Of a DNA stretch of 64,000 bases, positions 4,500 through 57,076 are shown piece after piece. The position numbers were made by a program, and so were the translations under genes. The notes under the pieces are model-generated. The model was not told the DNA's origin. It saw only the letters and a list, made by a program, of their open reading frames with translations, and searched no databases. Source of the stretch: Octopus sinensis (Eukaryota); NCBI RefSeq assembly GCF_006345805.1, contig NC_043008.1, forward strand, positions 57,784,001-57,848,000. Reading direction: 5' to 3'. The number at the start of each line of letters is the position of its first letter. Positions within the stretch are counted from its first letter, which is position 1.

Positions 4500-5487
4500 T
4501 CATCATCATCATCATCATCATCGTTTAACGTCCGCTTTCCATGCTAGCATGGGTTGGACGGTTCAACTGGGGTCTGGCAAGCCCGAAGGCTACACCAGAC
4601 CAGTCAGATCTGGCAGTGTTTCTACAGCTGGATGCCCTTCCTAACGCCAACCACTCCGAGAGTGTAGTGGGTGATTTTATGTGCCACCGACACAGGTGCC
4701 AGACGAGGCTGGCAGACGGCCACGCTCGGATGGTGTTTTTTATGTGCCACCGACACAGGTGCCAGACGAGGCTGGCAGACGCCACGCTCGGATGGTGTTT
4801 TTTATGTGCCACCGACACAGGTGCCAGACGAGGCTGGCAGACGGCCACGCTCGGATGGTGTTTTTTATGTGCCACCGACACAGGTGCCAGACGAGGCTGG
4901 CAGACGGCCACGCTCGGATGGTGTTTTTTATGTGCCACCGACACAGGTGCCAGACGAGGCTGGCAGACGGCCACGCTCGGATGGTGTTTTTTATGTGCCA
5001 CCGACACAGGTGCCAGACAGGCTGGCAGACGGCCAGCTCGGATGGTTTTTTTATGTGCCACCGACACAGGTGCCAGACGAGCTGGCAGACGGCCACGCTC
5101 GGATGGTGTTTTTTATGTGCCACCGACACAGGTGCCAGACGAGGCTGGCAAAACGTCCACGATCGGATGGTGTTTTTTATGTGCTGCCACCGACACAGGT
5201 GCCAGACGAGGCTGGCAGACGGCCACGCTCGGATGGTGTTTTTTATGTGCCACCGACACAGGTGCAGACGAGGCTGGCAGACAGCCACGCTCGGATGGTG
5301 TTTTTTATGTGCCACCGACACAGGTGCCAGACGAGGCTGGCAGACGGCCACGCTCGATGGTGTTTTTTATGTGCCACGCCACCGACAGGTGCCAGACGAG
5401 GCTGGCAGACGGCCACGCTCGGATGGTGTTTTTTATGTGCCACCGACACAGGTGCCAGACGAGGCTGGCAGACGGCCACGCTCGATG
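4500..5487 (-). mobile_element. RTE-LINE 3' UTR fragment with (GAT)n tail and expanded internal array
   Basis: Shares its 3' end (...CCAACCCATGCTAGCATGGAAAGCGGACGTTAAACGATGATG) with the RT-bearing copy at 20820-21835. Further copies: 7283-7570(+), 14908-15158(-), 24795-25381(+), 32848-33093(-), 37812-38078(-), 38550-38830(+), 42020-42235(+), 45245-45480(+), 57720-57963(+), 57998-58495(-), 63397-63815(-). Confidence 0.82.
4679..5487. repeat. Minisatellite, 13 copies of a 63-bp unit
   Basis: Unit ATGTGCCACCGACACAGGTGCCAGACGAGGCTGGCAGACGGCCACGCTCGGATGGTGTTTTTT starting at 4679, 4742, 4804, 4867, 4930, 4993, 5053, 5115, 5179, 5245, 5307, 5369 and 5435. Confidence 0.95.
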
Positions 5488-53348: not shown

Positions 53349-53513
53349 ACATATGGCTTTGATATGTTGCCAACTTTACATAACCTGCGCAAACTCCATC
53401 TGTTCATGGAACAAGAGCAGTCACTGAGTAAACCCCTTGGGAAAATGGCTGCTGGAGTAGCAGCAATGGCCAAGAGGAGCAGCTACCAAGCTTTAGTGAA
53501 AAAACTCAACCTA
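53349..53513 (+). CDS. VPS33B: VPS33B coding exon 15 (TYGFDMLPTLHNLRKLHLF...AKRSSYQALVKKLNL)
   Basis: TTGTAG acceptor, GTAAGT donor, 165 nt. Confidence 0.94.
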
Positions 53514-54180
53514 GTAAGTACATTCGTAAATGTTGTTGTTCTTATTTGTTATTTTTTGTCCCTCCCCCCAGTCAGCCTTTACTGAACAGACTTATGATCA
53601 AGGGTGTTCTGACCATCACCGCTTTCTCCTGTGTATCTATGGTACAGAAGACAAAAGACAGAGACAGGTGATGGAACAACAAACAGGTGTATTAGAACTG
53701 CATTATTAAACGAGCAAAACGACCCCTCCTCCGTCCGTTGGACGGTGCTGAGTTGTCAAACATTTAAACCAAATTTTCTCAAAACACTTGTCCGACCGTC
53801 CCATAGGCCTTCCCTTTGAGAAACACTGATTTAACCTAAATTTGAGACACCAGCAAAAGAAGAAATAAAGATAGACTTTTTTCTATTCCAAAGAAAAAAG
53901 GTCAACACTCTGATGATGTTGAGGATGGTGGCTGTGGGAATGGCGTAGTGGCACTTGTGGTATTTTCTGCAAGTCCCCTCAACAAACTTGACATGTCTCA
54001 ATAAAAGATAGACTGGTATCTAAAACTGCTGTCTGCAGATAAAGGTAATGAAATTTAGAATGGATGTAGCTGATTTTCATAGTAAAAGGGTCAACACTCT
54101 GATGATGTTGATGATGGCGGCTGTGGGAGTGGCGTAGTGGCACTTGTGGTGGTGGTGGTGGTGGTTCCACTGTTTGATGG

Positions 54181-54658
54181 TCTGAATTATCTGCTCCTTC
54201 CTGATATGAAAACAGATTCCTCCCCACCCCCATACTCATCAATATGTTTTTTTTTCTCTTTTTTCCTTTTCTTTGCTTTTCAAGGTCCCCAAATCTGCTG
54301 TACAGCAAGACACCTTGTTTGAAGAGTAATCTATTGATAATTAAGTGCCCTCAAATACCTCTCACATCTGAATAATCTGCTCCTTCCTGATATGAAAACA
54401 GATCCTCCCCCTTCATACTCATCAATATGCTTTTTTTCTTTTTTCTTTTTCTTTGCTTTTCAAGGTCCCCAAATCTGCTGTACAGCAAGACACCTTGTTT
54501 GAAGAGTAATCTATTGATAATTAAGTGCCCTCAAATACCTCTCAAATCTGAATTACCCGTTCCTTCCTGATATCAAAACAGATCCCCTCCACATACTGAT
54601 CAATATGTTTTTTTCTTTTTTTCTTTTCCTTTGCTTTTCAAGGTTCCTAAATCTGCTG
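54181..54658 (+). repeat. Tandem triplication (~180-bp period) of the exon-16 3' splice-site region
   Basis: Units start at 54181, 54367 and 54547. Each has the pyrimidine tract, TTGCTTTTCAAG and GTYCCYAAATCTGCTG. Confidence 0.93.
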
Positions 54659-54744
54659 AAGACATCAATTTAAAAAGTCCCCGTGATATGTCATATGTTT
54701 TTAGTGGTGCGTATACTCCAACCTCGTGCCGCCTGGTTGAGGAG
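54643..54744 (+). CDS. VPS33B: VPS33B coding exon 16 (VPKSAEDINLKSPRDMSYVFSGAYTPTSCRLVEE)
   Basis: Pyrimidine tract plus uncommon AAG acceptor; GAG|GTAGGT donor; 102 nt. Confidence 0.94.
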
Positions 54745-55751
54745 GTAGGTAAAAATATTCACTTTTAGCTCTGGTACCACAATCTAATGCTTCAAAAAAT
54801 CATTCAAATCATATCAGCATTGAAAGAATATAAAACATTGTGGGGTTAAGAAGCTTGCTTCCTGACCATGTGGTTTTCAGTTCAGTTACACCACATGATC
54901 CCTTAAGCAAGTGTCATTTACTGTAGCCTTGGGCTGGGCTAACCAAAGCGTGTGTGCCCTTGTCTATACATAATGCATGGTTGCAAACGGGTATCATTGT
55001 CACACAGCAAAGCTGTTCATTTCTAGTCTTCTATGAAAACACGTCTAGCAATGACAAAATATTACCTTGCTTGGGTTAGGGTCAAAACTAATCACTCGGT
55101 TAGTTACAATGACGAGGGTTCCAGCTGAGCTGATCAATGGAAAAATCTGCTCATGAAATTAGCATGCTAATGGTTGAGCACTCCACAGACACACACACTT
55201 GACATAGCTATTACTATCTCTCTCTCCCCTCTCCTTCTATTCTGATTGTTACCATCAACCATCTTTTGTCAAACGCTTACCATCTTTTGTCATTCGCTAC
55301 ATCTATCTCTTGTCCAATTTCTACTCATCTGTCATTCTCCTCCACATTTTTGTGGAATTACCCACTCTTTCCTTCCCTCATAATTTATGGACTATATTCC
55401 CTCTTATACTCGCCTTTTTGTACCTTGTGAGTATGCCCTGGCACCCTGTCACCACCATCTTCATTTCCCTTCCAGCTACTCCCACCCATTCTTGCACATC
55501 GTGAAGAAGAAATGTATCTCCTGTATAGCAAGACACCTAGTTTGAAGAGAGTAATATATTGATAATTAAGCACCCTCAAATACCTCTCACATCTTCTGAG
55601 TGTGTGTGTGTGTGTGTGTGTGATAAACATTTGTGGTCAAAAAGTAATAGAAAATTTGCAGTATTTTCAAAATTTCTCAAATATGTGATAATTCTTTTGA
55701 AAATTTGAAATCTGATTGTGTAGTAAATATTTACATTTTTATCAATCACAG

Positions 55752-55845
55752 GTTCTAACTAGAAATGGTTTCACTGGTTTGGAAGATGTGACAAAATTAT
55801 TGCCTGGTGAAACATTCTGTAGTATACGATCTCCTATTCCTAAAG
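55752..55845 (+). CDS. VPS33B: VPS33B coding exon 17 (VLTRNGFTGLEDVTKLLPGETFCSIRSPIPK)
   Basis: CACAG acceptor, AAG|GTAAGT donor, 94 nt, phase 0/1. Confidence 0.92.
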
Positions 55846-57076
55846 GTAAGTTCTTCCTTGGTTATGTTTTACTTGTTTCAGTCATTGGACTGCAGCCATT
55901 CTAGGGCACTGCTTTGAAGGGTTTTAGTTGAATGAATCAACCCCATTAGTTATATATTTTTTTTTCCCTCTCTCTCTCTTTCGGAGAGGCACAAGCACCT
56001 ACATGCACATATACACACACGGCAGTAACTTCCGCCTGCCGAATTCAATCACAAAACTTCGGTCGGCTTGGGGCTATAGCGGAAGACACCTACCCAAAGT
56101 GCCACACAGTGGAACTGAACCCGAAACCATGTAGCTAGGAAGCAAGCTCCCTAACCACACAGCCATGCCCATATTTTTTTAAAGCCTGGTACTTATTCTG
56201 TTGGAAAACAATGTTACTCTGTAGAAGGGAAACTTTGCTTGTTGGGCAGAATTTGAATTCAGAGTGCAATGATCCAGAACTAGTACTGCAAAGCTTCTTC
56301 ATCCAATGCGTCAATAATTCAAGTCCAACATCATTCTATCACTCTACAAGTCATTTCGCCAGATAAATTCTGATGTGTTCTTAAAAAGGTTCAACTGCAT
56401 GAAATGTCTTCAATCACAAGAGGAGAGCTATATAAGAAATCTGAGCTACATAACCTGGCACTTTTAGCTTATCGATCCTCGAAGGATGGAGAGCAATGTC
56501 GATCTCAAGTGCAAAGAACAGGAAACGAATATGGCAAGGCATTCTGTCTTATGCTCTAACAATCCTATACTAATTTGTCAGTTGTCTCTTACTTGTTTCA
56601 GTCATTTAACTGCGACCATGCTGGAGCACTGCTTCGAAGGGTTTTTAGTTGAACAAGAATAAATCGCCCCCGTTATTTATTCTGTCTATCTCTTTTGCTA
56701 AACTGCTAAATTATGGAGATGTGAACAAACCAACACCGGTTGTCCAGCTGTTGTGGGAGACATAAATAAAGACGTACACACACACACACCACACACACAC
56801 ACACACATACATACATATATACATATATACAATGAGCCTCTGCACAGTTTCCATCAACCAAATCCACTCACAAGGCATTGGTCATTCTGGAGCTATAATA
56901 AATGACACTTGCCCAAGGTACTGTATAGTGAGACTGAACCTGAAACCACGTGGTTGCAAAGCATGCTTCTTAACCTCATGGCTAGCTGTATCTAAAAAAA
57001 CAAAATCCCCAAAACCTTTCAGGTCGTTCATCTTCTAATCCCATATGTCCTGTTTTTTTTTTCTTCTTCATTACAG

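What the first reader, a model, noticed from the sequence alone, without database searches (positions are those of the whole stretch)
54181..55594. Triplicated splice acceptor creates two stop-containing decoy pseudo-exons upstream of VPS33B exon 16
Seen: three tandem copies (period 178-186 bp) of the branch region, pyrimidine tract and CAAG acceptor. Copies 1 and 2 (exon starts 54285 and 54465) keep the first 16 nt of exon 16. They then jump, at a CTG microhomology, into ~70 nt that matches intron 16 downstream (55521-55594). Spliced to exon 15 they read VPKSAVQQDTLFEE* (TAA at 54327 and 54507). A weak GA|GTAATC donor would instead give 41-nt frameshifting cassettes. Inference: a ~1-kb tandem duplication, then internal deletion, then re-duplication. 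The spliceosome must skip two equally strong upstream acceptors, so this could be a young poison-exon/NMD switch or yield a C-terminally truncated SM protein.
Basis: partly seen in the sequence, partly recalled or inferred. Interest (0 to 1): 0.72.

Follow-up and report, generated by a model that had tools for sequence, protein, structure and literature searches.

The report
Ignored duplicate splice acceptors, octopus VPS33B
An octopus VPS33B intron holds two broken extra copies of the start of exon 16, but every assembled transcript examined splices past them to the real exon, so they are likely harmless relics of a local copying accident rather than a regulatory switch.

Summary
The feature is real but ordinary. 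The window holds three copies of the exon-16 acceptor of the single-copy VPS33B gene. The two upstream copies keep 16 nt of exon and then run into 74 nt copied from intron 16. That tail spans a junction of two repeat families found only at the intron-16 site, so the template was local. Contigs from 3 of 4 public DNA runs laid carry the chimeric copy. The fourth, a more distant organism, joins straight across with one acceptor. In 4 of 4 spliced-transcript runs (4 studies), one contig joins exon 15 directly to the third acceptor. The extra acceptors score like real ones, but no competent donor follows them, and their branch point is the weaker variant. Exon definition likely ignores them. Use at about 10% or less, cleared by NMD, cannot be excluded, because contigs drop rare forms. 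No conservation signal was found. The copies are 8-10% diverged from their templates, so the first event is not recent. A regulated poison exon or a truncated protein is unsupported.

The parts
53349..53513 (+). VPS33B coding exon 15; its donor is the GT at 53514
   Evidence: Exon chain translates exactly to P0003; spliced contigs leave the window at 53513
54181..54300 (+). Acceptor copy 1 (S1): branch motif CTCAT (A at 54238), pyrimidine tract, AG before 54285, first 16 nt of exon 16
   Evidence: contigs of X2, X6, X9 cover it
54301..54366 (+). Tail 1 (T1), copied from intron 16; holds the weak GT at 54326 and TAA at 54327-54329
   Evidence: 5 substitutions in 66 sites and one 2-nt gap against 55524-55591; donor score -5.8
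54367..54480 (+). Acceptor copy 2 (S2): CTCAT branch motif, tract, AG before 54465, first 16 nt of exon 16
   Evidence: outside the assembly supported only indirectly
54481..54546 (+). Tail 2 (T2); weak GT at 54506, TAA at 54507-54509
   Evidence: 1 substitution from T1; an X6 contig runs from 54515 across the T2/S3 junction
54547..54642 (+). The acceptor in use (S3, intron part): CTGAT branch motif (A at 54599), tract, AG before 54643
   Evidence: used in 4 of 4 spliced-transcript runs
54643..54744 (+). VPS33B coding exon 16, 102 nt, followed by a strong donor at 54745
   Evidence: leave-one-out donor score 10.96
55392..55538 (+). Fragment of dispersed repeat family R1 in intron 16; its last bases form the 5' part of the copied tail
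   Evidence: 38 other genomic matches at 73-85% among 40 of 291 candidates scored, all ending at or before query position 164; alignment
55521..55594 (+). Template of the tails (T0): CTG microhomology, R1/R2 junction, fragment of repeat family R2, TCT microhomology
   Evidence: only the local places match across the junction; present in X13, which lacks the decoys

Best explanation
The two upstream acceptors are partial copies of the exon-16 acceptor, the transcripts examined splice past them, and they are likely neutral relics that the spliceosome ignores. Origin (inferred): replication left exon 16 after 16 nt at a short microhomology, copied 74 nt of intron 16 about 870 nt downstream, and returned by a second microhomology to about 95 nt upstream of the acceptor. 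A 1-kb duplication followed by a deletion gives the same sequence. The 180-nt unit was later duplicated again. Why they are skipped (inferred): all introns of this gene are 492-4160 nt, so exons are probably defined across the exon. The real acceptor lies 102 nt from a strong donor. The copies have no competent donor of their own, would need 280- or 460-nt exons to reach that donor, and carry a weaker branch motif. Any stray product has a stop far upstream of three further junctions and would be removed by NMD.
For: Shown: one contig joins 53513 to 54643 with consecutive record coordinates and 0 mismatches in X10, X11, X15 and X18, 4 of 4 runs from 4 studies; X15 shares its sample code with the best DNA holder. 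The annotated 602-aa protein equals the canonical chain. The decoy GT scores -5.8 against 2.3-12.9 for the 18 real donors (leave-one-out), and 68% of 1904 intronic GTs of the gene score as high or higher. Strong AGs without exons are common here: 25 of 1657 intronic AGs reach the median real acceptor. The donor-like GT and the stop codon come from repeat sequence and show no change towards the donor consensus. The decoy is no better conserved than flanking intron in X9: 3 of 169 against 30 of 820, Fisher p = 0.34. Local tandem duplications are common: 8 other arrays of period 80 or more with no match to another array in 463.9 kb. Literature: PMC9225289 (abstract, passages, section 9) reports that under exon definition (flanking introns over 250 nt) sites closest across the exon are favoured and smaller exons preferred.
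Against: All RNA evidence is assembled contigs at word depth 5-22, tissue unknown, no NMD block. A form at 10% could be missed in all four runs with probability about 0.15 and at 5% about 0.53, and contig cleaning makes this optimistic. The donor matrix rests on 18 sites; one real donor (intron 3) also lacks both G at -1 and G at +5, and one has only 4 of 9 consensus matches, like the decoy. In PMC9225289 section 9 the upstream 3'ss preference in human is only reduced under exon definition, not stated to be reversed. The decoy has persisted across organisms B, C and D as well as the window's own, and its point estimate of divergence in X9 is half the flank rate, on very few sites. The organism with one acceptor may have lost the copies, which would fit mild selection against them.
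Confidence: 0.72

Rival explanations
1. Leaky but unregulated: the copies, mainly copy 2 pairing with the real donor as a 280-nt exon, capture a few percent of splicing events; NMD clears these and the cost is tolerated.
For: The acceptors score 7.0 and 9.6 against 8.7 for the real one, with the same tract, and predicted structure does not hide them. The detection limit is about 10-20%. PMC8819188 (passages) found splicing activity in normal cells at 15.7% of catalogued human pseudoexons.
Against: The contigs of 4 of 4 runs run unbroken through the canonical joint at 53513. The longest real coding exon of the gene is 165 nt.
Confidence: 0.17
2. Regulated poison or decoy exon: the copies tune VPS33B level by NMD or by detaining intron 15, or yield a 489-aa truncated SM protein.
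For: The anatomy resembles decoy exons (usable 3' site, weak 5' site, rarely spliced in; PMC12017769 passages). All four aberrant products carry premature stops. The copies persist in several organisms. A human VPS33B cut at residue 420 keeps some function (PMC3746110 passages), so a truncated form need not be inert.
Against: Spliced contigs join across the region in 4 of 4 runs. There is no excess conservation. One related organism has a single acceptor. No truncated isoform is among the 2 clusters found with exon 15 or the 3 members of the octopus cluster. A human stop at c.1519 is listed among the pathogenic ARC variants (PMC3746110 passages).
Confidence: 0.05
3. The three-copy state is partly an assembly artefact or a polymorphism: one decoy is real and the second is a falsely tandem allele, or is present only in some animals.
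For: No laid contig spans the whole array. In X2 and X6 the copy-1 contigs end at 54327, whereas the assembled sequence predicts a break at 54296, so copy 2 may differ or be missing in those animals.
Against: The X6 contig begins at 54515, exactly where two tails differing at 54365/54545 would fork. The X9 contig runs from tail 1 into 30 nt that fit copy 2: 3 mismatches in the whole contig, whereas copy 3 differs from copy 2 at 5 of those 30.
Confidence: 0.05
4. Recursive splicing: each copy is an AG|GT ratchet point, so intron 15 is removed in steps and the mRNA looks canonical.
For: Each acceptor is followed directly by GT, and a canonical mRNA is what this would give.
Against: The regenerated donor scores -14.1; 98% of intronic GTs score as high or higher. 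The GT is simply the Val codon that opens exon 16. The intron is only 1129 nt.
Confidence: 0.01

Closest known systems
Silent pseudo-exons / pseudo splice sites (PMC8819188, passages)
   Same: Exon-like intronic stretch with a good 3' site and a poor 5' site, carrying a premature stop, not seen in the mature mRNA examined.
   Different: Here the 3' site is a recent copy of the gene's own next acceptor, 178 and 358 nt upstream of it, not a chance match.
Poison exons and decoy exons (OGT intron 4 type; PMC12017769 and PMC8819188, passages)
   Same: Premature stop if included; weak 5' site; located inside an intron.
   Different: Those are conserved and measurably included or cause intron retention. 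No inclusion or excess conservation was found here, and one relative has no copy.
[quoted passage not shown]
   Same: A local duplication containing AG|GT is made harmless by splicing.
   Different: There the duplicate creates a new intron from coding sequence. Here an existing acceptor is copied and the existing intron simply grows by about 366 nt.
Duplicated 3' splice-site competition experiments (Reed and Maniatis, as described in PMC9225289; original not read)
   Same: Near-identical 3' sites compete for one donor.
   Different: In those short-intron substrates the upstream site was chosen. Here the most downstream site is used, as exon definition would favour.
Microhomology-mediated templated insertion (FoSTeS/MMBIR; search listing and recalled knowledge)
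   Same: A short piece copied from about 1 kb away, with 3-nt microhomologies at both junctions, joined to a small duplication.
   Different: Cannot be told from duplication followed by deletion on the end product alone.

Membership tests
Poison exon | Introduces a premature stop that predicts NMD | tested here: met
   489-, 498- or 504-aa products, stops upstream of further junctions
Poison exon | Alternatively included in normal cells | tested here: inconclusive
   4 of 4 runs show only the canonical joint; contigs drop rare forms; limit about 10-20%
Poison exon | Conserved above neutral intron | tested here: not met
   Absent from X13; 3 of 169 against 30 of 820 differences in X9, p = 0.34, low power
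Poison exon | Stabilised by NMD inhibition, regulated by tissue or state | not testable with these tools
   No raw reads or NMD-blocked runs among the 24 listed
Decoy exon (intron-retention type) | Usable 3' site with weak 5' site inside an intron | tested here: met
   Acceptor scores 7.0 and 9.6, donor -5.8
Decoy exon (intron-retention type) | Host intron is retained or detained | tested here: inconclusive
   Contigs join across intron 15 in 4 of 4 runs; library type and nuclear fraction unknown
Decoy exon (intron-retention type) | Deletion or blocking makes splicing constitutive | not testable with these tools
   needs a minigene or antisense test
Recursive splice site | AG followed directly by GT | tested here: met
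Recursive splice site | Regenerates a competent 5' site after the first step | tested here: not met
   score -14.1, against 2.3 for the weakest real donor
Locally templated duplication | Inserted piece traceable to one nearby template | tested here: met
   the R1/R2 junction is matched only locally
Locally templated duplication | Microhomology at the junctions | tested here: met
   CTG within a 7-of-8 match; TCT at the return junction
Locally templated duplication | A relative holds the single-copy state | tested here: met
   X13 contig joins 54274 to 54642 and X13 holds the template region; whether this state is ancestral or a loss is open
VPS33B (Sec1/Munc18 family) | Sec1 domain and VPS33-type sequence | tested here: met
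   PF00995 precomputed and NCBI names VPS33B or VPS33B-like; E 1.8e-99 to human VPS33A chains. The B label rests on the sources' names; no tree was built.

The most novel reading that the evidence does not exclude
The copied acceptors have been co-opted, within one octopus lineage, as a de novo decoy or poison element that lowers VPS33B output in some tissue or state, by 41-nt cassette inclusion, use of copy 2, or detention of intron 15. That would be a regulatory splicing element born from a duplicated acceptor, with relatives holding zero and one or two copies as a natural comparison series.
Probability: 0.06. Interest if true: 0.6.

Novelty: new member of a known kind. Interest (0 to 1): 0.2.

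Why it matters
As it stands it is a tidy natural example that near-identical upstream acceptors are skipped when no donor backs them. That fits exon definition operating in a mollusc with kilobase introns. It could serve as a ready-made minigene for splice-site choice in cephalopods, but it does not change what is known. It would matter more only if regulated inclusion or intron detention were shown, because that would capture the birth of a poison or decoy element.

Tried and rejected
1. No RNA holder listed: none of the 24 runs is on record as RNA and all are kept as contigs, so junction reads could not be counted. The four runs laid are judged transcript-derived because their contigs are spliced and no intronless gene copy was found in the genome. 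2. Zero depth over 54184-54599 in those four runs is recorded here only; a hole in contigs proves nothing. The joints table was empty, with repeats masked at 54426-54461 and 54603-54641; the joint was read from table 8, and 24 loose-end rows and 44 piece rows were not shown. 3. X2 has no cover over 54518-54778 (76% of the run was read): no inference drawn. By the tool's 31-letter rule the X2 and X6 contigs (27 letters past 54300) do not strictly bridge the exon/tail junction; X9 does (77 and 96 letters), and X6 bridges the tail/acceptor-3 junction (32 and 338). 4. Independent insertion of a repeat as the source of the tail: rejected, because the tail spans a two-family junction matched only locally. 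5. Nucleosome-sized duplication bias, prompted by five neighbouring arrays of period 183-184: rejected, because they are one repeat family unrelated to this array. 6. RNA structure hiding the copies: predicted accessibility does not separate the three acceptors. 7. Pfam scan of single exons 15 and 16: no hit, too short. 8. Literature: no paper on this locus was seen. VPS33B occurs 0 times in the 15 listed of 256 papers, and the 9 papers concern human disease; most subscription journals are not searched. Supplements were not opened. 9. Earlier scan findings were not available, so no comparison with them was made.

Full report
Gene. Exon 15 alone finds two protein clusters among 16 candidates, both named VPS33B or VPS33B-like by their sources. 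A 602-aa member, P0003, is listed for two Octopus species. A chain of 19 GT-AG-bounded coding exons from 27162 to 60023 translates to it exactly; exon 15 is 53349-53513 and exon 16 is 54643-54744. The gene is single-copy: the only other genomic matches are 33-47% identical.

Observation. The array is as described: period about 180, 2.6 copies, 54181-54658. Each upstream unit is an acceptor block S (branch region, pyrimidine tract, AG, first 16 nt of exon 16) followed by a tail T. Splicing exon 15 to 54285 or 54465 gives VPKSAVQQDTLFEE and a stop, 489 aa. The 41-nt cassettes give 498 aa (one) or 504 aa (both).

Origin of the tail. T matches 55516-55594 at 90% and 11 other genomic places at 82-89% over 45-62 nt, so an independent repeat insertion had to be excluded. 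The intron-16 site is a mosaic. Family R1 ends near 55538: 38 non-local matches among 40 of 291 candidates scored, none beyond query position 164 of 217. Family R2 follows. Only the window's own places match across that junction, so the template was local. The first junction has CTG in common within a 7-of-8 match; the second has TCT. One replication event with two template switches gives S-T-S directly. A 1048-nt duplication followed by deletion gives the same result, through an intermediate carrying an in-frame second exon 16. The sequence cannot separate the two routes.

Age. S1 and S2 differ from S3 at 9.8-9.9% of sites and the tails from their template at 7.6-9.1%. S1-S2 differ at 4.4% and T1-T2 at 1.5%. 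So there were two events of different age. Divergence to X13 in the listed pieces is about 4-8%, and intronic divergence to X9 about 3.7%. The first event is thus about as old as the split from organism E. No dates in years were derived.

DNA runs. Of 24 runs listed, four DNA-type runs from three studies were laid. X9 has a contig over 54224-54396 that bridges the exon/tail junction. X6 has contigs over 54189-54327 and 54515-54884, the second bridging tail 2 to the real acceptor. X2 has one over 53873-54327 with 1 mismatch. X13 has a 704-nt contig that covers 53958-54274, continues at 54642 after 4 letters, and then skips 54796-55282; other X13 contigs cover 55418-55868. X13 therefore has one acceptor and the template. 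The X6 start at 54515 is where two tails differing at 54365/54545 would fork, which supports two decoys. Against this, X2 and X6 break at 54327 rather than the predicted 54296, so copy 2 may differ in those animals. No contig spans the array. Polarity is open: the truncated difference table lists X13 changes at 54215-54227 but none at 54190, 54192, 54194 and 54208, where S1 and S3 differ. If X13 really follows S1 there, its single acceptor may be a loss by deletion between the repeats. 115 rows were not shown, so this is a hint only.

Transcripts. Four runs of organism A from four studies were laid. In each, one contig holds 53347-53513 and then 54643 onward at consecutive record positions with no mismatch (depths 22.2, 8, 14.5 and 5.15), and X10 continues into exon 17. 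The dominant mRNA therefore skips both copies. If a contig needs two copies of a word, a form at 20% would be missed in all four with probability 0.005, at 10% 0.15 and at 5% 0.53. Contig cleaning, unknown tissue and intact NMD make the true limit weaker. No truncated isoform is among the 3 cluster members, but NMD-type transcripts are often not entered as proteins (general knowledge).

Why the copies are skipped (inferred). The difference lies downstream. The best GT within 300 nt of acceptor 3 is the real donor (11.8; leave-one-out 10.96). The five GTs in each decoy unit score -2.7 to -10.2; the proposed one scores -5.8, matched or beaten by 68% of 1904 intronic GTs. Reaching the real donor needs 280 or 460 nt, against 65-165 nt for the gene's coding exons. 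Only copy 3 has the CTGAT branch motif. The regenerated donor for recursive splicing scores -14.1. Predicted structure does not distinguish the three. PMC9225289 (abstract, passages and section 9 read) reports that with introns over 250 nt sites closest across the exon are favoured and smaller exons preferred, though for 3' sites it shows a reduced upstream preference, not a reversal. The matrix is small, and one real donor has as few consensus matches (4 of 9) as the decoy.

Selection and background. In X9 the decoy contig differs at 3 of 169 sites against 30 of 820 in intronic flanks (p = 0.34): no signal, low power. In 463.9 kb around and including the window there are 20 arrays of period 80 or more. 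Eleven belong to two repeat families; 9, including this one, match no other array. The other 8 cover about 0.6% of the sequence, so an occasional duplicated acceptor is expected in a genome with very many introns (inference).

Protein consequence. A stop after residue 489 removes about 125 native residues that align to the C-terminal part of human VPS33A chains. In PMC3746110 (passages), nonsense and frameshift alleles go with severe ARC syndrome, while a form cut at residue 420 may keep some function. A truncated product is therefore more likely a loss than a new function, but is not certainly inert.

Comparison. Poison exons are defined as conserved, alternatively included, stop-containing exons, and decoy exons as elements that promote intron retention (PMC8819188 and PMC12017769, passages). 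The stop and the weak donor are met, conservation is not, and inclusion and retention were not seen but could not be tested deeply. Intron gain by AGGT duplication (PMC3265369, part 1 of 4 read) is related but makes a new intron.

Verdict. A real, locally templated, twice-copied acceptor that the transcripts examined ignore. Neutral fossil 0.72, leaky and cleared by NMD 0.17, regulated element 0.05, second copy artefactual or polymorphic 0.05, recursive 0.01. Interest 0.2.

Noticed in passing
window 53712-53898 (intron 15): A repeat whose summed contig depth is about 10,000-19,000 times that of exon 15 in X2, X6 and X9 but only 0.3 times in X13. This suggests a very high-copy element that spread after the split from organism E. 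Other copies follow (TA)n runs, and it appears in all four transcript runs. Summed depth is not a copy number.
   Followed up: partly
window 53886-53961 and 54075-54150: A second local direct repeat in the same intron, 76 nt, 91% identical, 189 nt apart, starting at the end of that element.
   Followed up: no
window 54796-55282 (intron 16): Skipped in the X13 contig: an insertion of about 490 nt of repeat sequence in the window's lineage, or a deletion in organism E.
   Followed up: no
L021:3516-4984, L031:2087-2519, L049:3544-3967, L051:7100-7468, L054:8951-9316, L055:5383-5737, L058:8809-9699: One dispersed repeat family forms head-to-tail arrays, mostly of period 183-184, at 7 places in 464 kb; a second family of period 125-132 does so at 4 places, including window 4675-5484.
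   Followed up: partly
window 54643-54744: Exon 16 is 102 nt with phase-0 ends, so skipping it keeps the frame; a second, weaker GT lies 4 nt after its donor (54749, score 3.9).
   Followed up: no
window 54645, 54648 and 54598: The real exon differs from both copies at two synonymous third positions, and the real acceptor differs at the branch motif. Whether the real site was strengthened or the copies decayed could not be polarised.
   Followed up: partly
G000:C7757:150265-151982 and G000:C29:14469717-14469890: Distant Vps33-like matches (33-47%), probably the other paralogue.
   Followed up: no
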